Of a stretch of 9,340 nucleotides of DNA, positions 1 to 9,340 are shown one piece after another; positions within the stretch are counted from its first letter, which is position 1, and every line of letters starts with the position of its first letter. The notes beneath the pieces were generated by a model. It saw only the letters and a program-made list of their open reading frames with translations. It was not told where the DNA came from and made no database searches. A program made the translations under genes and the position numbers. Source of the stretch: a virus (taxonomy: Duplodnaviria; Heunggongvirae; Uroviricota; Caudoviricetes); the IMG/VR virus record IMGVR_UViG_3300000293_000239; one strand, 5' to 3'.

Positions 1-768
1 ATGCCACAGCCGGCGCTAAAAGCGAACGAAATCAGCAGTGAATTAATCGATATTCTTGCGGCTCGGAATACGATATCCGAAATGCAATATTTTCGTTATA
101 TCAGAGATATAGAAAAGTTGCGCGACAGCGCATCTGAGGACTATCTCAAAGCGTTGGCTAATGGTGCTTTTGGGCGTAAAGATACTGCAGTTGCATTCTT
201 TGAAGAAGCATTGAAGCATAACAACCTGATCATTGCTCAAAATTATGTAGTTTATCTCAACGATTACGGCAGCTTCCGTGAAGTTGAACAAGTGGTAAAT
301 CGATTAGTTGAACGTTATAACTCCCCTACGATGCTGTCCCATGCATGGGAAGCTAACTTGTTCTTGGGGCGTATTGACAAAGCGCTCTACTATGCTGAGA
401 GATTGATAAGTATGGTAGATGAAAAGGAGGCTGAATTGGTTAAGCACCTCGCAGCCACAGCACTGGCCCAATCCACGACCTTCAAAAGTGCAACTGGAAT
501 TACTGATGAAGAACTACAGGATATTGCAAACCGCATAGTGGATATCATGGCTGACCATAAAGTTAGTCCTGTTGCTATGTCTTTCTGCTCTATCCCTGAA
601 GAGCGTACGTCATCATATGTCATGGCAGTTAATACTGAAGATTCTGATGTTCTCTCTGATATGAACTTGGATATAGCATTTTCTCTTGCAGAAAATGAAA
701 GTTTGATTGGAAAACCCTTCAGCGTATGGTTTGAAGGGCGTTTGGAGGAACCTGCGCGTGCCAGTTAA
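1..768 (+). CDS. Hypothetical protein, first gene of a two-gene operon; may be 5'-truncated by the window edge
   Basis: Open frame from the first base (ATG at 1-3) to TAA at 766-768; 255 aa, acidic, helical-looking. I recognise no family. Antisense ORFs 43..291 and 390..623 lie inside it and are treated as shadows. Confidence 0.5.
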   Translation: MPQPALKANEISSELIDILAARNTISEMQYFRYIRDIEKLRDSASEDYLKALANGAFGRKDTAVAFFEEALKHNNLIIAQNYVVYLNDYGSFREVEQVVNRLVERYNSPTMLSHAWEANLFLGRIDKALYYAERLISMVDEKEAELVKHLAATALAQSTTFKSATGITDEELQDIANRIVDIMADHKVSPVAMSFCSIPEERTSSYVMAVNTEDSDVLSDMNLDIAFSLAENESLIGKPFSVWFEGRLEEPARAS

Positions 769-1141
769 TAGTTCCGATTTTATCGCTTTCGCAAAAGATT
801 GTGAAAAGCGTAACGACGAAATTGGTTACAGAAACGCTGTCGCACGTGCGTATTATGGTGCTTATCACCACGTACTTCCGTGTTTGACCATGGGGCCGAA
901 AGAAAGTCACCAAGGCCTCATTGACTATCTTGTTAACGATGCTTGGAAGGGTAACGAACCTTTTGAAAAAAGAGACTTAATTGGTTTGGGGTATGCTCTT
1001 CAATCGCTTAAGGATCAGAGAATAGTTTGTGATTACAGACTTAACGACACTATTACGCCAACCCAATCAAGCACCGCGATTAAGACTGCAGAGAAATTAA
1101 TCCAGCGTTGCGCTAATATGACCAAGTCTAAAGCGTCCTAA
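758..1141 (+). CDS. Hypothetical protein (127 aa from GTG 758) with a possible HEPN-like R-x6-H motif (RAYYGAYH)
   Basis: Frame is open from 707, but the only upstream ATG (707) has no Shine-Dalgarno sequence. GTG at 758-760 is preceded by GGAGG (745-749) and overlaps the stop of the upstream gene, suggesting translational coupling. Stop TAA at 1139-1141, followed immediately by a terminator. The HEPN assignment is a motif-level guess only. Confidence 0.45.
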   Translation: MPVNSSDFIAFAKDCEKRNDEIGYRNAVARAYYGAYHHVLPCLTMGPKESHQGLIDYLVNDAWKGNEPFEKRDLIGLGYALQSLKDQRIVCDYRLNDTITPTQSSTAIKTAEKLIQRCANMTKSKAS

Positions 1142-1146
1142 TCCCC

Positions 1147-1180
1147 AAAATTGGCCTCATTTGAGGCCAATTTTATTATG
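1147..1180 (+). terminator. Rho-independent terminator; perfect 13-bp palindrome AAAATTGGCCTCA-TT-TGAGGCCAATTTT followed by T-rich tract
   Basis: Arms 1147-1159 and 1162-1174 pair perfectly with a 2-nt loop; GC-rich core GGCCTC/GAGGCC; A-run upstream and TTTTATTAT downstream, so potentially bidirectional. Sits 6 nt after the stop of the 758..1141 gene. Confidence 0.7.
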
Positions 1181-1212
1181 CATTGTATTTAATTTCACCG
1201 TGCGGAAGCATT

Positions 1213-1556
1213 ACCCAATCATATGGTTCCGCGTATAAATTTTCGTTGATTTCGCGTCGCTGTGGGCTATGAGCCCTTGTGGTCTACTCCCTGTTTATCA
1301 AACAAAATGCAGCTAGTGCGCGTATTTTGTGGAATGTGGGGGCGCAGCTCCATCGTCAAATTATTACACAAGCCTAACGAATCACGGGGCAATGAAAAGT
1401 ATGGCTAAGATAGGCAGGTGCGGATACCTCTTTACTGCGTTTGTTATTACGCTCGGTATACGGTGAACGATATACGGGCAGGCAACGTTATCGCGACTGT
1501 TATCAATAATACGTTTCAGTTTGTCCTCGAACTACATCACAACCGGCTTGAAAACT
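1213..1556 (-). pseudogene. Decayed 3' fragment of a tyrosine integrase gene, paralogous to the intact integrase at 2719..3903
   Basis: Minus-strand translation gives EDKLKRIIDNSRDNVACPYIVHRIP..., LCNNLTMELRP, FHKIRALAA, FDKQGVDHKG and AHSDAKSTKIYTRNHMIG-stop in shifting frames. These match the intact integrase C-terminus (KRIIDNSRDNVASPFVVHRIP ... LCNHLAMEQRP ... FHEIRALAAHLFDKQGIDPQGRMAHSDAKSTKIYTKNH). Several frameshifts and in-frame stops; the N-terminal two thirds are missing. The 5' boundary (~1556) is approximate. Confidence 0.75.
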
Positions 1557-1624: not shown

Positions 1625-2581
1625 ATGACCAATTTGTATAAGTTTATGGGAGCGGATATAATTGATAAATTGATGATGGATGAAACACATATAGGAATAA
1701 AATTCTCTCATTTACATGAATATAATGATCCCTATGAGTTTTTCCTTACTATTGATTTTAATCGCGGTTCTGATGAGTTAGCATTTTACAATGAAATGAT
1801 TGGCATGGTTACAAAACAACCAGCAACTTGTTTTACGAAAAGCCCTGTGATACCACCTATGTGGGCACATTATGCAGGTAATTCTTCTGGTTTTGTAATA
1901 GAGATTAATGAGGAGAAGTTTAAAAAGTATTTGGATGAAATCGGCTTCCAGGATCATAGTTCAATAGCAGATGTTGAATATAAAGATTCTCCAGATACAG
2001 GTATTGAAGACATTCTGGCGAGAGCATTTCATATCTGTAAACCTCGTTATATCTACTGGCTACAATCCTGTATAATGACAGCCGCATATTTGACAAAACA
2101 AACTTGCTGGAGTTATGAGCAGGAACGTCGCGTAATAATTAATGAGAAAGCACTTACTAAACTGAATGACAATCTTATGCTCCTTCCGGTACCGATTAAT
2201 TGTATAACTGGAGTTATAGTTGGGCACAAATCAAATGATTTATTAAAGCAGAAAATTCAATCTTTAGCTAAAAAGGCTAAATGTAGATATTTCGAAATGG
2301 TAATAGGAAAAACAACAACTACACCATTTCTTTTATCTCAAAATCTCAAATCACACCAATTTATTAATGGCAATATAATACCTGCATCAAGGCAATGTAA
2401 AAAATGTTATGAGCCTTTAAACATGGAAAATAAAGTTTGTGGCTGGTGTGGAATTACTAATCATGATGTGAAAATGGCAGAGTACCGTAATTCATTTCGA
2501 ATGATAGCCAACTATGGTGGGCTGGATAAATATATATCATCCATGAATAAGATTACTGAAGAGTATAATAAGGGTAAATAA
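1625..2581 (+). CDS. DUF2971-like protein with C-terminal CxxC-x13-CxxC zinc ribbon; candidate defence/abortive-infection protein
   Basis: ATG at 1625 preceded by AAGGAG (1613-1618); stop TAA 2579-2581; 318 aa. N-terminus NLYKF...KFSHLHEYNDPYEF resembles the LYKY...NDP.E signature I associate with DUF2971. C-terminal CKKCYEPLNMENKVCGWCG is a zinc-ribbon motif. The gene is visibly far more AT-rich than its neighbours, consistent with horizontal acquisition. Family assignment is from memory of the motif, not a search. Confidence 0.8.
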   Translation: MTNLYKFMGADIIDKLMMDETHIGIKFSHLHEYNDPYEFFLTIDFNRGSDELAFYNEMIGMVTKQPATCFTKSPVIPPMWAHYAGNSSGFVIEINEEKFKKYLDEIGFQDHSSIADVEYKDSPDTGIEDILARAFHICKPRYIYWLQSCIMTAAYLTKQTCWSYEQERRVIINEKALTKLNDNLMLLPVPINCITGVIVGHKSNDLLKQKIQSLAKKAKCRYFEMVIGKTTTTPFLLSQNLKSHQFINGNIIPASRQCKKCYEPLNMENKVCGWCGITNHDVKMAEYRNSFRMIANYGGLDKYISSMNKITEEYNKGK

Positions 2582-2718: not shown

Positions 2719-3903
2719 CTAACCGGTTTTAATTTCTCCATGAGGGACAACAATCCAATCTATATGATTTTTAGTATAAATTTTAGTAGATTTCGCATCG
2801 CTATGTGCCATTCGTCCCTGCGGATCAATCCCTTGTTTATCAAATAGGTGAGCTGCCAAAGCTCTTATTTCATGGAATGTAGGTCTTTGTTCCATTGCTA
2901 GATGATTGCATAGTCCGAGTTTGTCTCGCACGGAAGAGAATGACCGACTCAAATAATCTGGTGCAACTTGAGTTGGGTGCGAAACCTCTTTACTGCGTTT
3001 AACATGCCGTTCTGGGATTCTATGAACGACAAAGGGACTGGCCACATTGTCACGGCTATTGTCAATTATCCGTTTCAATTCTTCACCAATTGGTATTGCA
3101 ACATGTGATGCCTCCTTTTTTTGTACTTTTTGCCTATGGATGTATAGTGTACCATATATGCCATTTTGTGGTTGTTCGAACCAAACACATCCACATAAAC
3201 CGTCTTTAGGTTCGCGAATTGAGTAACGGATTCGCGATACTTCGAGTCGTGCATGTGTAGTCTGCAATGCTAGGTCCATTGCTGTTCTTAACCATGGTGC
3301 AGCGGCCTGCCTGATAGCTATAAAATGCTCGAGTGACAGGCGCCGTCTTTTCTTCTCATCAGTCCTACGCATTTTTTTTCTGATGGCCGGGTTATCCTGC
3401 ATTAGTGATTCATCGACCGCATAAGAGAACAACTTTTTAAGAAAGCTGACCTTTCTGTTCTGCACATTTGCGGATGCGCTGGCATGATATTTGTTGATGT
3501 AGGCATTAACGTGTTCAAGTTCGATATCGCATGCCGGAACATTTACGAAAAATGCTTTTACGCGTAGAGCGTCATTTTTCCAGTCATCTAAGGTACTCTG
3601 GGAAGGTCGTTCGTCTTCGATAATTCTGGCCATTATGTGATCGACATGTTCAGCAAATGGTTTTGCTTCTCCGGTGACCCCGCCAGATTCTCTAATAAGA
3701 TTATCCACTGATGGGTATAATTCTGATCGCATCCTCAGGTTGTACTCTCTGGCGATTGCAACGGCTATTGCCCGATCCTTACCTATATTTTTCTTTTTTC
3801 CGGTAATAAGTGTGAATTTATAAACACCTCGATCTTTATCAAAAACCAGATAATCAGGAAGATGTCTGTATTCTTTTTTACGTGGCCTTGCCGCCATGGT
3901 CAT
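2719..3903 (-). CDS. int: Tyrosine recombinase / phage integrase (lambda Int family)
   Basis: 394 aa. Contains the conserved catalytic-region hallmarks of tyrosine recombinases (R in ...THARLEVS..., H-x-x-R in FHEIRALAA, and Y in STKIYTKNH) and an N-terminal arm-binding-like basic region. Its ATG (3901-3903) overlaps the excisionase stop (ATGA). Confidence 0.95.
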   Translation of the reverse strand: MTMAARPRKKEYRHLPDYLVFDKDRGVYKFTLITGKKKNIGKDRAIAVAIAREYNLRMRSELYPSVDNLIRESGGVTGEAKPFAEHVDHIMARIIEDERPSQSTLDDWKNDALRVKAFFVNVPACDIELEHVNAYINKYHASASANVQNRKVSFLKKLFSYAVDESLMQDNPAIRKKMRRTDEKKRRRLSLEHFIAIRQAAAPWLRTAMDLALQTTHARLEVSRIRYSIREPKDGLCGCVWFEQPQNGIYGTLYIHRQKVQKKEASHVAIPIGEELKRIIDNSRDNVASPFVVHRIPERHVKRSKEVSHPTQVAPDYLSRSFSSVRDKLGLCNHLAMEQRPTFHEIRALAAHLFDKQGIDPQGRMAHSDAKSTKIYTKNHIDWIVVPHGEIKTG

Positions 3904-4745: not shown

Positions 4746-5272
4746 TTGCGTAACTCCGATAACTCGTTAAAACGTTCCATAAACATCCCATAGGCATGGC
4801 CTGGCGACAGTGGAATCACTTTGAACATCTCTGTTGCCGGGATACCTTCCAGTACAGGCCAGAAAGAGCCATCATCAAGCCCGAGATCGCGGCGTTCGGT
4901 TGCCAGCATGATGAGATCGGCATATTTCACGGGCGTGCTCATAACCGGGGGTAACCCGTATTTCTCACGGATTACGGCGTCTATTTTTTCTTCCATCCGT
5001 TTATAGTCAGGAAGAAGGCGTTTCAGTGGAGCCGGGATGTCCTGGCAATACGCTTCTGTTGCATCATGCATTAACGCTTCAAAAGCAAATTCCTGCGGCA
5101 CCAGCATGCTGCAAAGAACCGCATGTTGGGCGACGCTGTAGAAGTGCGAAAGATGACCGGCAAAGCGACAGATATTTGAAAGGGAAACCGCGATATCGTT
5201 AATATCGATGTCGTCTTTATTTATCTTGTCATAATAAAAATGCTTCCCGGAAAAAGTTTTAATAAATGACAT
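4736..5272 (-). CDS. yfdR: HD-domain metal-dependent phosphohydrolase (5'-deoxynucleotidase-like, YfdR-like)
   Basis: 178 aa from ATG 5270-5272 with GGAG upstream (GTGGAGAATAAAATG); the ORF-track start at 5299 lacks an SD. H...HD motif (HLSHFYSVAQH ... ALMHDATEAY) typical of the HD superfamily. Size and sequence context match what I remember of E. coli prophage YfdR. Confidence 0.85.
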   Translation of the reverse strand: MSFIKTFSGKHFYYDKINKDDIDINDIAVSLSNICRFAGHLSHFYSVAQHAVLCSMLVPQEFAFEALMHDATEAYCQDIPAPLKRLLPDYKRMEEKIDAVIREKYGLPPVMSTPVKYADLIMLATERRDLGLDDGSFWPVLEGIPATEMFKVIPLSPGHAYGMFMERFNELSELRKCA

Positions 5273-5399
5273 TTTATTCTCCACGTATATGCACTGCACC
5301 GCGCTGAATTCTGGTAAAAGGAAGCCCTCACCATCCGGTGATTATTGAGTTAATTACGTTTCCATAAATGCCCCCGCAGGGGCATTTGCAGTAATGAAA

Positions 5400-6224
5400 T
5401 CAGGCGGTGAAAGTACCAATAAAGGTTTCTACTTTGCTGTCTTTGAATTTCTCAACAAGCAGATCACGAAATTCGTTAGCCATTTCTTCCTGCACCGCTT
5501 CCAGCTGAATAATGCGCAGAACCAGTACAGGACGATCGCCAGTGATAATGCTGAGGCGTAATTTAAACGGACGTTCTTTCAGACCTTCAAACGGAACGCA
5601 TTTAAATTCAAATGCCACAGGCATAATGTCTTTGGTCTTCGCTTCGACAGACTCCATCAGGGAGCGTTTGCCGCTGAAGTCATTATCTTCAAAATCAGCG
5701 GTCTGGTTCGCTTCAATTGTGATTTTACGGATCGCCGCAGCAGCTTTGGTTGCCTGAATGGCGTCACCATTAGCATCAAAGCCCACAAGGTAGTCGGCCC
5801 AGTCTTCAATCCATTCTGCCAGTGACTTCTGGGAGTTACGCTCGCCGTTAACAGACAACAGGGCAGAGAACGGTGCTGTCTTTTTCAGTTTGAGAGTGGC
5901 GGTGTTATCTGCGTGACCTGGTTCATCAATAGTACCCAGGTTAAGCACACTGACGGCACGCATATTATCAGCATCGATAAAGCAGCGGGTGCCTTCATCT
6001 GCAAGATCTTTAGAATAACGGGTAAAGTCATCGATGCTGGCAGTGGAAAGCGCACCACGGAAACGGAAGCGATTTAAATTAAATTTTTCCAGATCATGAA
6101 TGCGGAAATTCTCAGGCAATGCCACAGCATCGGCACCAATCTTACTGATAATTTCATTAACACCCTGAGCAGAAATAAGGGCATGGATTTGATTAATTGC
6201 GGTTGCGTCTAAGTTCTGAGACAT
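5400..6224 (-). CDS. yfdQ: DUF2303 family protein (YfdQ-like)
   Basis: 274 aa; ATG 6222-6224 preceded by GAGGA; position upstream of the HD gene as in the yfdP-yfdQ-yfdR-yfdS cluster of E. coli prophage CPS-53/KplE1 (from memory). Confidence 0.8.
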
Positions 6225-6288
6225 AATCAGTCCTCACTATATAAAATATTCAGTGATGAGATAAATAATCAGTTAATTAAAAACGATA

Positions 6289-6651
6289 TTAATGACCTGC
6301 TGCGCGGAGTTTTCCGTCAGGTTCACCGGCAAGAGTCAGTAATTGTCCCTGGTCTTCCTGCAGAATAGTCAGGCGACCACCGCGATTGACATACATCGGT
6401 GTTTCGGTGGTGTCTTCTTCGGAAATTTTCCCGCGGTTAGTCGGGCGAACATATGAGAGTTTATGTTTTATTTTCACACGGTTCTCATCAAACGGTTCGA
6501 TTTCCAGGTTGAGCGAGACCTTACCTTTGGTTTTCGTGTTCATCACACCGGAAGCGACTTCACTGAGAACTGCGCCGATTTTGGTTTCAAATACGCCGCC
6601 GTCCAGCTCCCCGATAAATGCCTGCACATCAGTACTGCGTTCGCTAGCCAT
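6289..6651 (-). CDS. Hypothetical prophage protein, 120 aa (YfdP-like by size and synteny)
   Basis: The ORF track extends this frame to 6969, but the only start with a ribosome-binding site is ATG 6649-6651 (GAGGAGCAGCAAA-ATG). The upstream extension runs through a GC-rich, stop-poor structured region and is low-complexity. Confidence 0.7.
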   Translation of the reverse strand: MASERSTDVQAFIGELDGGVFETKIGAVLSEVASGVMNTKTKGKVSLNLEIEPFDENRVKIKHKLSYVRPTNRGKISEEDTTETPMYVNRGGRLTILQEDQGQLLTLAGEPDGKLRAAGH

Positions 6652-6699
6652 TTTGCTGCTCCTCATCATATCGACCCTGCAAGGTCGGTTGGTTTCTCC

Positions 6700-6788
6700 A
6701 CAAAACAGAGAAGAACACCTGCGGTGGCAGCCGCCCGGATGGATTGGGTTATGAGCCCGTCGTCCGGTGATGCTCTTCTCTGTTTTGT
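6700..6788. repeat. Perfect 15-bp inverted repeat (ACAAAACAGAGAAGA / TCTTCTCTGTTTTGT) separated by a 59-nt GC-rich spacer
   Basis: Arms at 6700-6714 and 6774-6788 are exact reverse complements. Lies in the 5' leader of the leftward early genes; the right arm overlaps the U-tract of the adjacent minus-strand terminator. Confidence 0.6.
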
Positions 6789-6834
6789 AAAAAGAGCGGT
6801 ACCAGCCGGAAGCAAGGGTACAAACTGGTACCGC
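6786..6834 (-). terminator. Candidate intrinsic terminator for leftward transcription (10-bp GC-rich stem GCGGTACCAG/CTGGTACCGC, 19-nt loop, then UCUUUUUACA on the minus strand)
   Basis: Stem arms at 6796-6805 and 6825-6834 are perfect complements; on the minus strand the hairpin is followed by TCTTTTTACA (complement of 6786-6795). The loop is larger than in typical terminators. Confidence 0.45.
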
Positions 6835-7088
6835 CAGGACTACACACAGCATAAAGTTGTGGTGCCGGGTGCCTCCCGGTGCCTGGCGAAGGTTGCACAC
6901 CAGACGGGTGGGTATCCACAGAAGGTCGACTGTCAGCCTCAACCTTAACCCGCGTGCGCTGAGCCGCATTCACCACAACGCTAAGGATTCTCTCTGGTTG
7001 AAAATACTTAGCTGTTATGTGCCTGTCTTTTCACCACTTCAGGCTCGGTGGTATCCTTTTAAGCCCGTATACATAAAAGGAAAATCAA

Positions 7089-7334
7089 ATGACTTTTGAT
7101 GAAAAAGAACTTGATAATGCAATTAATAAAATCATCGTAACGTCGCTCTTTTCCTGTCTCAGCGACACTCAGCAGAAACAGTTCTACGAATCGGCTTTCA
7201 ACATGATCGAGCGTTGTTGTTTCTGCGATGCCGACGAGTTACCTGAAAAAATCAGAAAACAGTTGGCTGATGCTCTTCGAGTGCGACTTTCTGACCAATT
7301 TTCTGAAATGTGCTCTCCGAATTTGGACAAATAG
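7089..7334 (+). CDS. Hypothetical small protein (81 aa), rightward-oriented inside the leftward early region
   Basis: ATG 7089 preceded by AAGGA about 8 nt upstream; protein-like composition (charged, helical, CxC pair). Its 3' end overlaps the convergent minus-strand ORF 7252..7527 by 83 bp, so at least one of the two may be mis-called. Confidence 0.45.
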   Translation: MTFDEKELDNAINKIIVTSLFSCLSDTQQKQFYESAFNMIERCCFCDADELPEKIRKQLADALRVRLSDQFSEMCSPNLDK

Positions 7335-7527
7335 AAAAAGGCCATTTCCATTCAGGGTCTGATGGAAATACTTCAGCCTGTTCCAAAGCACGGTGTAAAG
7401 AGAATACAACTCCAGCCATAATCTGATGTTTCCCATTGGTCCAGCTATCGCCGCTCTGATCTACAGGAGCGGCTATGTCGTATGACCAAACGACTTCACC
7501 ACTATTGTTTAAAATCTGGACTTTCAT
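7252..7527 (-). CDS. Hypothetical small protein (91 aa), leftward early operon
   Basis: ATG 7525-7527 preceded by GGAGG at good spacing; the SD is formed by the last codons of the upstream 61-aa ORF (coupled arrangement). The C-terminal third is antisense to the 7089..7334 ORF, and a weak hairpin plus U-run (7344-7369) lies inside it. Confidence 0.45.
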   Translation of the reverse strand: MKVQILNNSGEVVWSYDIAAPVDQSGDSWTNGKHQIMAGVVFSLHRALEQAEVFPSDPEWKWPFSICPNSESTFQKIGQKVALEEHQPTVF

Positions 7528-7535
7528 TTTGTTCT

Positions 7536-7721
7536 TTAACCTCCAGATTTCCGCGCATCTAAAGGCGCATTCTCATTTGGTGTGAACTGAATAGTTGTGC
7601 TGATATTGATTAATGCTCCGACACACAAGACTACGCACTCAGAGCAGATAGCAACTTCATCTTTTCCGCCTTTGGCGATGATTTTTTTGCCTGCAGCTCG
7701 TTTGCGCCACAAAACGAGCAT
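7536..7721 (-). CDS. Questionable small basic ORF (61 aa), first ORF downstream of the putative pL
   Basis: No Shine-Dalgarno sequence; the start codon is embedded at the edge of an 8-bp stem / 8-nt loop hairpin (7696-7719). Position corresponds to where N-like antiterminators sit in lambdoid phages, but I see no arginine-rich motif match I can defend. Confidence 0.25.
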   Translation of the reverse strand: MLVLWRKRAAGKKIIAKGGKDEVAICSECVVLCVGALINISTTIQFTPNENAPLDARKSGG

Positions 7722-7839
7722 GTGAAATAACGGTTCATTTGCGCTCTCTTACACATAGTATTTAACGAATCATCCGGTCATTCATACGCCACCGGCGGCT
7801 ACTTCGTGGGCGTCCTGCCTGTTCGTTATCTTTGACATA

Positions 7840-7910
7840 AAATCTAACTTAACTTAGTTATTATGGCAAGAGAAAACACCAAACTTTTCTTAGTTCGGTG
7901 CCTTAGTTAG
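7840..7910 (-). promoter_or_regulatory. Putative OL/pL region: leftward promoter (-35 TTGCCA, 17-nt spacer, -10 TAGATT on the minus strand) overlapped by operator repeats
   Basis: 11-bp palindrome TAACTTAGTTA (7850-7860) lies in the spacer between the candidate -35 and -10. Further CTTAGTT copies at 7889-7895 and 7902-7908. Located just downstream of the repressor gene, as OL/pL is in lambdoid phages. Promoter hexamers are by-eye matches. Confidence 0.5.
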
Positions 7911-7922
7911 AGAAGAGAGGTC

Positions 7923-8549
7923 TTAGAGTTCGTATTGAACTCCTTTGACTACACCAATGATAAGGCAATTACCATTGATAGGGATGTTGGGATACCGAGG
8001 ATTTAATGGCACTAAAAACTTTTGAGGGCCATCGATGACTAATTTTTTTACTGTAGCTTCGTTTGTTCCATCAAGTCGAGCGATGACTATTTTTCCATGA
8101 CGAGGTTCTGCATCTGGATCTACAATCACTGTTGCGCCTTCTGGTATTGTTGGGAGGCCATTAGGGTTAGTCATGGAGTCACCTTTAACCTCTAATGCAA
8201 ATGAGTTATCACCAATCTTTAATGATGTATCTACCCACTTGTCCACTTCACTAAACACTTCTGCTGCCCTGCACTCAGTAAACTGCCCAGCCTGAACCCA
8301 CGATATTACAGGAACTCTGCGCATGTTTGTGACGAGTTTGCCTTCAAACTCAGCACCATAAAGAATGTAATCTATTGACGTATTGAAGAACTTCGCTAAT
8401 TTCGAAAGTGCCTCCCCACCAGGGGTATTGATGTCTTTCTCCCAGTACCCCACAGCAACGTCGCTTACTCCACAAAATTTACCCAATTCTTTCTGGGACG
8501 TTCTGGTAACTCTTCTCAGAGCTTTTATACGCTGACCAACCGTTTCCAT
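7923..8549 (-). CDS. cI: CI-like prophage repressor (N-terminal HTH_XRE domain + C-terminal LexA/S24 peptidase-like autocleavage domain)
   Basis: 208 aa. N-terminal helix-turn-helix (QKELGKFCGVSDVAVGYWEKD), C-terminal S24-like region with GDSM serine motif and downstream lysine (KKLV). Divergent from a cro-like gene across an operator-bearing intergenic region. No SD upstream of its ATG (possible leaderless transcript). Confidence 0.9.
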   Translation of the reverse strand: METVGQRIKALRRVTRTSQKELGKFCGVSDVAVGYWEKDINTPGGEALSKLAKFFNTSIDYILYGAEFEGKLVTNMRRVPVISWVQAGQFTECRAAEVFSEVDKWVDTSLKIGDNSFALEVKGDSMTNPNGLPTIPEGATVIVDPDAEPRHGKIVIARLDGTNEATVKKLVIDGPQKFLVPLNPRYPNIPINGNCLIIGVVKGVQYEL

Positions 8550-8646
8550 AGGAGCACCATTTCTTGAATTGCTAAGTAATCTTAGTTTTTATTGACCAAA
8601 GATAGATTTGTAATTAGCATCTAATAAAACTTAGTTTGGAGGGCGT
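8550..8646. promoter_or_regulatory. Putative OR region with divergent promoters (pRM leftward, pR rightward) and operator palindromes
   Basis: 14-bp palindrome CTAAGTAATCTTAG (8572-8585); 11-bp palindrome AAACTTAGTTT (8627-8637); candidate pR -35 TTGACC (8592-8597), 17-nt spacer, -10 TAGCAT (8615-8620); SD GGAGGG before the cro-like ATG. Confidence 0.6.
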
Positions 8647-8847
8647 ATGACAACTGACGATATCGAAAGCTACTTCGGCAGTATTGAGAAAGTTGCTGCT
8701 TTTTTCGGCATAACAACTGAAGCCGTTTATCAGTGGCGAAACCGTCCGGGCCAGTTAATTCCAAAAGGACGTGCAGCAGAAGCTGCATATAGAACTTGCG
8801 GACGGTTGCCATTTAAACCTGAGCTTTATGAAAAATCTAATGGATAA
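8647..8847 (+). CDS. cro: Cro-like small HTH regulator
   Basis: 66 aa; strong SD (GGAGGG) 5 nt upstream of ATG 8647; divergent from the CI-like repressor; HTH-like segment (IEKVAAFFGITTEAVYQWRN). The antisense ORF 8621..8812 is rejected. Confidence 0.75.
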   Translation: MTTDDIESYFGSIEKVAAFFGITTEAVYQWRNRPGQLIPKGRAAEAAYRTCGRLPFKPELYEKSNG

Positions 8848-9340
8848 ATCGATTAACAGAAACCACAGAACGATGAGGCTAACCGTGGGTAAGCATCACT
8901 GGAAAGTAGAAAAACAGCCTGAGTGGTACGTGAAAGCTGTCAGAAAAACTATCGCAAAGTTGCCGGGTGGTTACGCTGAAGCAGCTGACTGGCTGGATGT
9001 AACAGAGAACGCATTATTTAACCGCCTTCGTGCTGATGGCGATCAGATTTTCCCGCTGGGATGGGCAATGATTTTGCAACGTGCTGGTGGAACTCACTTC
9101 ATTGCTGATGCTGTGGCGCAGTCTGCAAATGGCGTCTTTGTGTCTCTTCCTGACGTCGAGGATGTGGACAACGCCGATATTAACCAGCGTCTGCTGGAAG
9201 TCATTGAACAGATCGGCAGTTATTCAAAACAGATTCGTTCAGCAATCGAAGACGGTGTAGTGGAACCGCATGAGAAGACAGCAATTACTGGTTTTTACAG
9301 TTGCTCGATAAAGTCACGCCCTCACAGTGGGCGGCAATAG
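8840..9340 (+). CDS. CII-like phage regulatory protein (resembles the phage CII/CP76 family as I recall it)
   Basis: Open frame from 8771 to TAG 9338-9340. Start is ambiguous: GTG 8771, ATG 8828 or ATG 8840. I chose ATG 8840, which overlaps the cro-like stop (8845-8847), as a coupled start. Position immediately after cro matches cII. Family call is from memory of sequence style, not a search. Confidence 0.6.
   Translation: MDKSINRNHRTMRLTVGKHHWKVEKQPEWYVKAVRKTIAKLPGGYAEAADWLDVTENALFNRLRADGDQIFPLGWAMILQRAGGTHFIADAVAQSANGVFVSLPDVEDVDNADINQRLLEVIEQIGSYSKQIRSAIEDGVVEPHEKTAITGFYSCSIKSRPHSGRQ

What the first reader, a model, noticed from the sequence alone, without database searches (positions are those of the whole stretch)
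1..1180. Translationally coupled two-gene operon of unknown function ending in a perfect palindromic terminator; downstream product has a possible HEPN-like R-x6-H motif
ORF 1..768 (at least 255 aa, acidic) is followed by an ORF whose best start (GTG 758, GGAGG SD at 745-749) overlaps the upstream stop. The pair ends 6 nt before a perfect 13-bp palindromic terminator. The downstream protein contains YRNAVARAYYGAYHH, which fits the R-x4-6-H spacing of HEPN RNase active sites, though this is motif-level only. The arrangement (larger partner plus small putative nuclease partner, tight coupling, own terminator, next to a mobile-element junction) is what one sees for toxin-antitoxin or two-component abortive-infection modules. 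An alternative reading is a single larger gene broken by a frameshift around 707-768, since both frames are open across the 62-nt overlap.
Basis: partly seen in the sequence, partly recalled or inferred. Interest (0 to 1): 0.5.

Follow-up and report, generated by a model that had tools for sequence, protein, structure and literature searches.

The report
Phage-borne HEPN nuclease-like gene pair
Two overlapping genes at the end of an E. coli prophage encode a fast-evolving repeat protein and a small HEPN-fold (nuclease-like) protein that always travel together in phages, which makes them a plausible but untested toxin/anti-phage module.

Summary
The sequence features are real. Gene A (1-768, complete, 255 aa, pI 4.7) overlaps gene B (GTG 758-1141, 127 aa, pI 8.3) by 11 nt. 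A GGAGG lies 8 nt upstream of the GTG, and a 13-nt perfect inverted repeat follows B.

A is an N-terminal TPR array plus an unassigned alpha/beta C-terminal domain. It is not the nucleotidyltransferase that usually partners this HEPN type.

A sits directly upstream of B in 80/80 viral and 22/23 genomic loci (the 23rd is a decayed copy), across Gamma- and Betaproteobacteria. No fused form was found, so the frameshift reading is rejected. A diverges faster than B in 53/54 pairs. The pair occupies accessory slots of temperate phages, most often convergent with the integrase, as here with an integrase remnant.

Best reading: a two-gene conflict module, with B the RNase-like effector and A its cognate inhibitor or sensor. 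No function has been tested. Novelty: new variant of a known kind.

The parts
1..768 (+). Gene A: complete 255-aa acidic protein. Residues about 18-150 are a TPR-like helical array, followed by two long helices (141-185) and a small alpha/beta C-terminal domain (strands 190-198, 203-210, 240-246; helix 215-230) carrying the family's most conserved motif, SDMNLDIAFSLAEN. The last 6 residues are disordered.
745..749 (+). Shine-Dalgarno GGAGG for gene B, inside the 3' end of gene A, 8 nt before GTG 758.
   Evidence: A GGAG-like sequence lies at the same place in most of 29 homologous junctions.
758..1141 (+). Gene B: 127-aa mildly basic HEPN-fold protein (AF0298-like HEPN-T / UPF0332 type), GTG start overlapping A's stop by 11 nt. 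Invariant residues are E21, R25, R30, Y32, Y33, H37, H51, R88, D92 and Y93.
827..871 (+). It is conserved, but it is not the canonical Rx4-6H position.
   Evidence: Helix 21-42 in the model. R25, R30, Y32, Y33 and H37 are invariant. H37 aligns to Tyr in 9xbd. The canonical motif lies at the end of helix 3 (PMC3710099).
908..910 (+). Codon for H51, the invariant His in the insert between helices 2 and 3. It is the predicted alternative catalytic His of AF0298-like HEPN-T domains.
   Evidence: invariant. (aligned to the 'SH' of 9xbd). PMC3710099.
1019..1036 (+). R88-I-V-C-D92-Y93 at the C-terminal end of helix 3. This is the canonical HEPN motif position, with Asp/Tyr in place of His.
   Evidence: It aligns to R-N-R-S-D-Y of 9xbd; its companion entry 9xbc reads F at the Tyr position.
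1147..1174 (.). Perfect 13-nt inverted repeat with a 2-nt spacer. As RNA it forms a 12-bp stem with a 4-nt loop, flanked by an A-tract and a T-tract. It probably acts as a bidirectional terminator between the convergent B gene and the integrase remnant.
   Evidence: -17.5 kcal/mol, z -4.4. (recombinase pseudogene ends at 1176).
1176..1525 (-). Context: C-terminal remnant of a tyrosine recombinase/integrase, convergent with B. It marks the pair as int-proximal cargo of a former integrative element.
   Evidence: PGAP calls it a 'recombinase, frameshifted, missing N-terminus'. tblastn gives 39% identity to residues 257-381 of the window's intact integrase. Intact convergent integrases occupy the same position in CFT073, Brenneria, Klebsiella and 19 of 64 viral contexts.

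Best explanation
This is an autonomous two-gene conflict module carried as accessory cargo by temperate phages and related integrative elements.

Gene B encodes a small HEPN-fold protein of the AF0298-like HEPN-T subtype. I infer that it is the effector. The likely activity is a metal-independent RNase that acts as a dimer. [quoted passage not shown]

Gene A is translated just before B from the same mRNA. It encodes an acidic, faster-evolving TPR protein with a small conserved C-terminal domain. I infer that A binds B and keeps it inactive, as an antitoxin-like inhibitor. I also infer that its TPR surface is the input site through which infection by another phage, or loss or titration of A, releases B. 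That release would arrest translation and abort the infection.

Shown here: the gene structure, the two folds, the conserved residues, strict co-occurrence, co-divergence, and phage-borne accessory locations.

Inferred only: RNase activity, the A-B interaction, toxicity, the trigger, and anti-phage function.
For: 2. Eleven residues are invariant in 30 homologues down to 26% identity: A12, E21, R25, R30, Y32, Y33, H37, H51, R88, D92 and Y93. They map onto the elements Anantharaman et al. describe for AF0298-like HEPN-T: the basic residue retained at the motif position, D in place of H, and an alternative His from the helix 2-3 insert. Such conservation suggests an enzyme rather than a scaffold.
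3. AbiV, which that paper groups with this subtype through the same alternative His, is reported to be an rRNA-degrading RNase and Abi toxin (bioRxiv 10.1101/2024.05.05.592566).
4. A lies immediately upstream of B in 80/80 IMG/VR loci. The same holds in 22/23 species-representative genome loci; in the 23rd both genes are decayed. The junction ranges from a 15-nt gap to a 20-nt overlap.
5. A and B co-diverge. A is less conserved in 53 of 54 distinct pairs (mean identity to the window 35% vs 52%). Across about 135 representatives A has almost no invariant residues. This fits a binder or sensor under diversifying pressure paired with a constrained effector.
6. The charges are complementary: A pI 4.7, B pI 8.3.
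7. There is no conserved third gene and no housekeeping context. Neighbours are heterogeneous.
8. The pair sits in accessory (moron-type) slots of temperate phages:
   - convergent with the integrase at the prophage end: CFT073, Brenneria and Klebsiella, and 19/64 viral contexts, where integrase is the commonest neighbour;
   - between Q and the lysis genes in Yersinia and Serratia;
   - between Mor and the endolysin in a Mu-like Aeromonas prophage;
   - in isolated Klebsiella phages.
9. 250 IMG/VR contigs carry a B relative.
10. In this window the equivalent slot next to the intact integrase holds a DUF2971 gene that matches the PADLOC defence candidate PDC-S31 (4.9e-22).
11. The pair is accessory in E. 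coli: 53 of 5426 complete genomes carry it whole and 44 more carry a divergent allele. Its GC content is 42.8%.
Against: - No experiment bears on toxicity, RNase activity or phage defence.
- The canonical catalytic His is absent. I found no published demonstration of nuclease activity for an AF0298-like HEPN-T protein, and some HEPN-T domains (for example sacsin) are described as nucleotide-binding rather than catalytic.
- A is twice the size of B and has no detectable DNA-binding domain, unlike classical type II antitoxins.
- Neither protein hit a PADLOC model directly. The family-level hit is only to a generic model named HEPN_IX.
- The pair is not in the DefensePredictor supplementary tables that are held as text.
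- I had no structure jobs left to model an A-B complex and could not access model coordinates. The interaction and the spatial clustering of the invariant residues are therefore inferred.
- In several phages the pair lies inside late or early lytic operons. That would also suit a phage life-cycle role.
Confidence: 0.5

Rival explanations
1. A plain toxin-antitoxin addiction module. B is a HEPN toxin and A a labile protein antitoxin. The pair only stabilises the prophage or island that carries it (post-segregational killing) and senses no phage.
For: It shares the gene order, overlap, charge complementarity and strict co-occurrence of the best explanation. It sits at the ends of integrative elements, where addiction would oppose excision or loss. 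The pair persists beside a decayed integrase in the window, as expected for an addictive remnant.
Against: Nothing indicates that A is unstable. A is large and TPR-based, a class of domain more typical of sensors and adaptors than of type II antitoxins. The fast divergence of A relative to B is more easily explained by an arms race with an external ligand. No plasmid in PLSDB carries it, although plasmids are the classic niche of addiction modules.
Confidence: 0.2
2. B is a non-catalytic HEPN domain that binds RNA or a nucleotide. The A-B complex serves the carrying phage itself, for example as a regulator or adaptor of late gene expression or lysis timing, an anti-defence factor, or a superinfection-exclusion factor that does not kill the cell.
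For: The canonical His of Rx4-6H is missing. In lambdoid and Mu-like prophages the pair lies directly after the late activator (Q or Mor) and before the lysis genes. In phage Chronis it lies in the early/nin-like region. HEPN domains lacking catalytic residues are proposed to act as binding domains (PMC3710099).
Against: PMC3710099 reserves the 'inactive' label for HEPN domains that lack conserved polar residues. B has ten invariant polar or aromatic residues, including two His and three Arg. The commonest position is outside the lytic operons, convergent with int at the prophage edge with its own terminator, where lysogen-expressed cargo usually sits. The pair also occurs in non-phage chromosomal contexts such as next to radA. 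It survives in the window beside a dead integrase.
Confidence: 0.2
3. A single larger gene broken by a frameshift around 707-768.
For: Both frames are open across 707-768.
Against: No fused homologue exists among 158 A-family representatives or 72 B homologues. The two-gene structure, B's Met-Pro/Ser-Val start and a ribosome-binding site are conserved in 29 distinct junctions, some with a gap instead of an overlap. A's last 6-9 residues are variable and disordered. B alone is a complete HEPN domain.
Confidence: 0.01

Closest known systems
AF0298-like HEPN-T domains (UPF0332, Pfam PF05168; PDB 2hsb), usually encoded next to or fused with minimal nucleotidyltransferases (MNT)
   Different: The partner is not an MNT. 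A is a TPR protein with an unassigned C-terminal domain, and no family member shows a nucleotidyltransferase Pfam hit. This clade is phage-borne in Proteobacteria, with extra family-specific invariant residues (R25, H37). The function of AF0298 itself is not established.
HepT-MntA type VII toxin-antitoxin systems (e.g. Shewanella SO_3166/SO_3165, PDB 5yep and 7bxo; Aphanizomenon HEPN/MNT, PDB 7ae2)
   Different: From established knowledge of that family, HepT carries a canonical Rx4HxY motif and is neutralised by AMPylation of the Tyr by MntA. B has R-x3-D-Y with no His there, and A shows no nucleotidyltransferase signature. Any inhibition would have to work by binding or some other chemistry.
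AbiV (Lactococcus abortive-infection HEPN RNase with an RNA antitoxin)
   Same: A HEPN protein in phage defence. Anantharaman et al. group it with the AF0298-like family through the alternative His at the same position. It is reported to degrade rRNA.
   Different: AbiV is about 200 aa, is controlled by an RNA (abiV2) rather than a TPR protein, and matches B only weakly in structure (Foldseek probability 0.28-0.54).
Prophage-encoded single-protein HEPN defences: HepS (Gifsy-1, Salmonella) and Tha (S. aureus prophages)
   Same: HEPN effectors carried by temperate phages that abort infection by competing phages after sensing phage tail proteins (abstracts).
   Different: These are single-protein systems in which the HEPN protein itself senses the trigger. 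No sequence relationship to B was detected. Here a separate TPR protein is obligatorily co-encoded.
HEPN families found with TPR/Sel1 partners (LA2681: fused to or in an operon with TPR; AbiU2: in an operon with a Sel1-repeat protein)
   Same: A HEPN gene combined with a TPR-class repeat protein in one operon, which is a recurring theme in conflict systems (Table 1 of PMC3710099).
   Different: Those families retain the canonical Rx4-6H. B and its relatives match only PF05168 among Pfam HEPN models.
PHROG families 17809 (A) and 5176 (B)
   Same: Direct family membership (3.7e-42 and 5.8e-30).
   Different: Both are annotated 'unknown function', so they add phage association but no mechanism.

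Membership tests
HEPN superfamily | Four-helix up-and-down HEPN bundle | tested here: met
HEPN superfamily (catalytic, canonical) | Rx4-6H motif at the end of helix 3 / start of the helix 3-4 loop | tested here: not met
At that position B has R88-I-V-C-D92-Y93-R-L, with no His within 4-6 residues of R88.
AF0298-like HEPN-T (PF05168 / UPF0332) | Basic residue retained at the motif position, Asp replacing the His, and an alternative conserved His in the insert between helices 2 and 3 | tested here: met
   R88, D92 and H51 are invariant in 30 sequences. They align to the 'SH' and 'R..SDY' of 9xbd. The definition is from PMC3710099.
AF0298-like HEPN-T (PF05168 / UPF0332) | Significant match to the Pfam HEPN model PF05168 | tested here: inconclusive
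   The window protein itself scores only E = 0.099, 13.2 bits against a cut-off of 22. 16 of 30 family members match at E <= 0.01, best 1.7e-8, and several have precomputed PF05168 hits.
MNT-HEPN / HepT-MntA type VII toxin-antitoxin | Adjacent minimal nucleotidyltransferase (MNT) partner | tested here: not met
   A and 72 relatives hit only TPR models in Pfam and no NTase model. The C-terminal domain topology is alpha-beta-beta-alpha-beta, which from general knowledge is not the alternating alpha-beta pattern of the pol-beta NTase core.
MNT-HEPN / HepT-MntA type VII toxin-antitoxin | Rx4HxY motif whose Tyr is AMPylated by the antitoxin | tested here: not met
   The motif is R-x3-D-Y. Whether Y93 is modified is not testable here.
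Type II toxin-antitoxin module (generic) | Two small adjacent co-transcribed genes, with a proteic antitoxin that binds and neutralises the toxin | not testable with these tools
   Gene order, overlap, strict co-occurrence and charge complementarity are compatible.
Type II toxin-antitoxin module (generic) | Antitoxin carries a DNA-binding domain for autoregulation | tested here: not met
   No HTH, RHH or AbrB hit in A or its family. The fold is TPR plus a small alpha/beta domain.
Known anti-phage defence systems (PADLOC-DB v2.0.0) | Match of the proteins to a system's models | tested here: not met
   No hit for either window protein. At family level B hits only the generic model HEPN_IX (16/30). 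A has only scattered single hits.
TPR proteins | Tandem TPR helical hairpins | tested here: met

The most novel reading that the evidence does not exclude
The pair founds an undescribed family of phage-borne immune modules. In it, an MNT-type (HEPN-T, AF0298-like) nuclease would have exchanged its nucleotidyltransferase antitoxin for a rapidly evolving TPR protein. Control of the toxin would then work by direct protein sensing of an invading phage component rather than by covalent AMPylation. It would also be the first functional assignment for the alternative-His active site of AF0298-like HEPN domains.
Probability: 0.3. Interest if true: 0.65.

Novelty: new variant of a known kind. Interest (0 to 1): 0.45.

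Why it matters
HEPN nucleases are among the commonest effectors of prokaryotic conflict systems. The AF0298-like (UPF0332) branch, however, has no established activity as far as I could find, and it is known mainly as the partner of nucleotidyltransferases.

Here the same HEPN type is locked to a different partner, a TPR protein. The locking is strict: 80/80 viral loci, 22/23 genome loci and 250 IMG/VR contigs carrying a B relative. The pair rides in accessory slots of lambdoid, Mu-like and other temperate phages of enterobacteria, including uropathogenic E. coli CFT073.

If it is a defence or exclusion system, it would add a compact two-gene module to the list of prophage-encoded immunity. 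It would give a tractable E. coli model for testing the alternative HEPN active site. It would also show how a toxin can swap its regulator.

If it is only an addiction module or has no phenotype, it is one more hypothetical phage accessory gene pair.

Tried and rejected
- Single-sequence searches of A and B against PDB sequences gave nothing significant. Only the family profile reached HEPN entries.
- The direct PADLOC and NCBIfam scans were empty or noise.
- The fold search of A returned only generic TPR proteins, so the C-terminal alpha/beta domain (about residues 186-246) remains unassigned.
- Literature:
  - No paper mentions WP_001145023 or WP_001136067.
  - No paper could be tied to PDB 9xbd/9xbc.
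  - 'HEPN' plus 'UPF0332' found nothing.
  - The DefensePredictor supplements held as text contain neither the accessions nor the peptides; some files were truncated.
  - A domain-centric defence screen (PMC13069673) and a Photorhabdus TA census (PMC13617665) do not mention HEPN or TPR.
  - Rousset 2022 describes no such pair.
  - The paper 'E. coli prophages encode an arsenal of defense systems...' is not in the library, so it could not be checked.
- No homologue of A was found on plasmids.
- I first thought the pair was cargo of the capsid-encoding satellite upstream in strain FORC_042. I rejected this because strain DETEC-P169 has the pair without the satellite, and a tRNA-Pro 3' fragment separates the satellite from the pair.
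- The frameshift hypothesis is rejected.
- ARAGORN found no intact tRNA near the locus.
Full report
**Observation**

The window is E. coli chromosomal DNA. Positions 1-1500 are 100% identical to 53 complete genomes, and at least part of the stretch matches in 74 of 5426.

ORF 1..768 (gene A) and ORF 707..1141 are present as described. NCBI's annotation of the identical sequence calls two hypothetical proteins, WP_001136067 (255 aa) and WP_001145023 (127 aa, starting at the GTG that is window position 758).

A is complete. An in-frame stop lies 18 nt upstream of ATG 1 in the genome copy, and homologues begin MPQ/MPK.

GGAGG at 745-749 lies 8 nt before GTG 758, and the overlap with A's stop is 11 nt.

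The inverted repeat has arms at 1147-1159 and 1162-1174. It is perfect, folds at -17.5 kcal/mol (z = -4.4) and begins 5 nt after the stop. It sits between the convergent stops of B and of an integrase pseudogene at 1176-1525.

**Is it one gene or two?**

It is two genes.
- All 53 B homologues in the first search are about 120-144 aa apart from three fragments. The A homologues are 250-276 aa apart from two fragments.
- An exhaustive profile search with A found 158 representatives. Nearly all are 245-265 aa, and none carries a C-terminal HEPN extension.
- In 29 distinct A/B junctions, from Enterobacterales to Betaproteobacteria, B's start aligns with GTG 758 and lies between 15 nt after and 20 nt before A's stop. 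Most have a GGAG-like sequence upstream.

The frameshift alternative is rejected.

**Protein B**

The AlphaFold model is confident (pLDDT 92.5) and all-helical, with helices at 5-17, 21-42, 51-66, 71-93 and 101-126.
- Foldseek agrees.
- The family profile hits the PDB sequences 9xbd ('HEPN domain-containing protein', 9.6e-5) and 2hsb (0.021).
- 16 of 30 family members match Pfam PF05168 (best 1.7e-8). The window protein alone is sub-threshold (0.099).

So the HEPN call is right. The motif that prompted it is not the HEPN catalytic motif.
- R30-x6-H37 lies in helix 2.
- According to Anantharaman et al. 2013, the canonical Rx4-6H lies at the end of helix 3. There B has R88-I-V-C-D92-Y93.
- That paper describes exactly this variant for the AF0298-like HEPN-T family: the Arg is kept, Asp stands in place of His, and a second conserved His comes from the insert between helices 2 and 3. 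The authors suggest this could form an alternative active site.
- In B that residue is H51.
- E21, R25, R30, Y32, Y33, H37, H51, R88, D92 and Y93 are invariant in 30 sequences down to 26% identity.
- H37 is Tyr in 9xbd, whereas the SH and R..SDY elements are shared.

**Protein A**

The model is also confident (pLDDT 91.9). It has TPR-like helical hairpins up to about residue 136, two long helices, and a small alpha-beta-beta-alpha-beta domain at about 169-246.

Across about 135 representatives almost nothing is invariant. The best-conserved stretches are the first 15 residues, residues 46-90, and the C-terminal helix motif (S)DMN..A..LAE.

**Co-occurrence and evolution**

- With an expanded A profile, 22 of 23 species-representative genome loci that encode a B relative have an A homologue ending at B's start. 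In the 23rd (Proteus hauseri) both genes are decayed. The loci span Enterobacterales, Aeromonas, Shewanella, Gilliamella, Thiotrichales and Betaproteobacteria.
- The same holds in 80 of 80 IMG/VR loci and in the contigs looked up for distant homologues.
- An apparent exception in Brenneria is an annotation miss caused by a GTG start.
- A and B co-diverge, but A is less conserved in 53 of 54 distinct pairs. Mean identity to the window is 35% for A and 52% for B.
- A is acidic (pI 4.7) and B mildly basic (pI 8.3).

**Genomic context**

There is no conserved third gene and no housekeeping neighbourhood. The pair is strongly phage-associated:
- 250 IMG/VR contigs encode a B relative.
- Four isolated phages encode a B relative, and in the two examined the A-like gene lies directly upstream; one is Klebsiella phage Chronis gp57/gp58.
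- The commonest immediate neighbour is a phage integrase, convergent and less than 200 nt downstream in 19 of 64 distinct viral contexts. CFT073 shows the same arrangement with a divergent allele (A' 35%, B' 61% identity) abutting an intact prophage integrase. So do Klebsiella michiganensis and Brenneria.
- In Yersinia and Serratia lambdoid prophages the pair lies between the Q antiterminator and the lysis genes.
- In a Mu-like Aeromonas prophage it lies between Mor and the endolysin.

In the window itself, B is convergent with a C-terminal integrase remnant. A DUF2971 gene and the intact integrase of a lambdoid prophage (yfdP/Q/R region) follow.

The capsid-encoding satellite upstream in strain FORC_042 is a separate insertion. 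Strain DETEC-P169 lacks it, and a tRNA-Pro 3' fragment lies between the satellite integrase and gene A.

The DUF2971 protein matches the PADLOC defence candidate PDC-S31 at 4.9e-22. The int-proximal slot therefore holds defence-type cargo twice in this window.

**Mechanism**

Shown:
- a translationally coupled operon;
- a HEPN-T fold with an enzyme-like set of invariant polar residues;
- a TPR partner that evolves faster;
- obligatory pairing;
- mobile, accessory, phage-borne distribution.

Inferred:
- B is an RNase-type toxin or effector that uses R88/H51.
- A binds and restrains B.
- A's TPR surface is the input for a phage-derived trigger, or A's decay releases B.
- The outcome is abortive infection or exclusion of competing phages.

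AbiV gives an analogy. The HEPN survey groups it with this subtype, and it is reported to be an rRNA RNase acting in abortive infection.

I put about 0.5 on this conflict-module reading with defence as the role, 0.2 on a pure addiction toxin-antitoxin module, 0.2 on a non-catalytic or phage life-cycle function, and about 0.01 on the frameshift idea. Roughly 0.1 stays unassigned.

**Comparison with known systems**

B qualifies as an AF0298-like HEPN-T domain by fold and motif pattern. The pair is not a HepT-MntA (type VII) system, because it has no nucleotidyltransferase partner and no Rx4HxY motif.

It is not AbiV, HepS or Tha, and it matches no PADLOC system. HEPN plus TPR/Sel1 operons are known for other HEPN families (LA2681, AbiU2), but those keep the canonical motif.

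Both proteins belong to PHROG families of unknown function. I found no publication on these proteins. The library is incomplete, and one relevant E. coli prophage screen could not be read.

**Verdict**

The finding is a credible, untested candidate for a new partner variant of HEPN toxin modules. I rate it of moderate interest (0.45) and as a new variant of a known kind.

Noticed in passing
window 445-476 (inside gene A), PAM at 442-444; L125 1502-1533: E. coli strain NY1601 has a type I-E CRISPR array between queE and ygcE. Its leader-proximal (most recently acquired) spacer is 100% identical to 32 nt of gene A. In the window the protospacer is preceded by AAG, the canonical I-E PAM. An E. 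coli CRISPR system has therefore acquired a spacer from this gene, which fits the gene arriving on an invading phage or element.
   Followed up: partly
window 1625-2581 (+): A DUF2971 protein (318 aa) lies between the integrase remnant and the intact integrase. It matches the PADLOC phage-defence candidate PDC-S31 (4.9e-22). It occupies the same int-proximal slot as the A-B pair, which suggests a cargo hotspot.
   Followed up: partly
window 1176-1525 (-) and 2719-3903 (-): Two tyrosine-recombinase genes lie in tandem. One is a frameshifted C-terminal remnant (39% identical to residues 257-381 of the other) and one is an intact 394-aa integrase. This points to successive integrations or recombination at one attachment site.
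   Followed up: partly
window 4753-9233; L040 9764-14169: The rest of the window is the early region of a lambdoid prophage (yfdR, yfdQ, yfdP, a LexA-like repressor at 7923-8549, a cro-like gene, ymfL). It is 97-99% identical to a CFT073 prophage, which nevertheless has an unrelated integrase and a divergent A-B allele. This is a mosaic exchange of the int-plus-cargo end.
   Followed up: partly
L001 3408-11562: In strain FORC_042 a satellite-like element is inserted between yejO and gene A. It carries an integrase, an Icd-like protein, a RepA-family helicase, a small terminase subunit and a major capsid protein. A 3' fragment of tRNA-Pro at 11517-11562 is its likely att site. The element is absent in strain DETEC-P169.
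   Followed up: partly
L040 6201-7389 (E. coli CFT073): Uropathogenic strain CFT073 and 43 other complete E. coli genomes carry a second, divergent allele of the pair (271 aa + 127 aa; 35% and 61% identity). Both genes are annotated as hypothetical.
   Followed up: yes
L122 4758-5141; L038 4998-5396: There are annotation gaps. In Brenneria goodwinii the B gene is intact but uncalled, probably because of its GTG start. In Klebsiella phage ST405-OXA48phi1.3 it is annotated as two small ORFs although a single 132-codon frame is open.
   Followed up: yes
L005 1-1589 (Serratia fonticola prophage): About 4 kb upstream of the pair, the same prophage region encodes a 565-aa protein with weak ApeA_NTD1 and HEPN_Apea hits. 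This is a second HEPN-type candidate defence gene in one prophage.
   Followed up: no
L008 1558-3455 (-) (Aeromonas Mu-like prophage): Two opposite-strand genes without any Pfam hit (454 aa and 177 aa) are inserted between gemA and mor, just upstream of the A-B pair. They may be another accessory module.
   Followed up: no
L043, L044, L046 (IMG/VR contigs): Several IMG/VR provirus contigs start exactly at gene A's ATG, with B at 758-1138 as in the window. The window is therefore probably the edge of a predicted provirus, and the pair marks the called prophage boundary.
   Followed up: no
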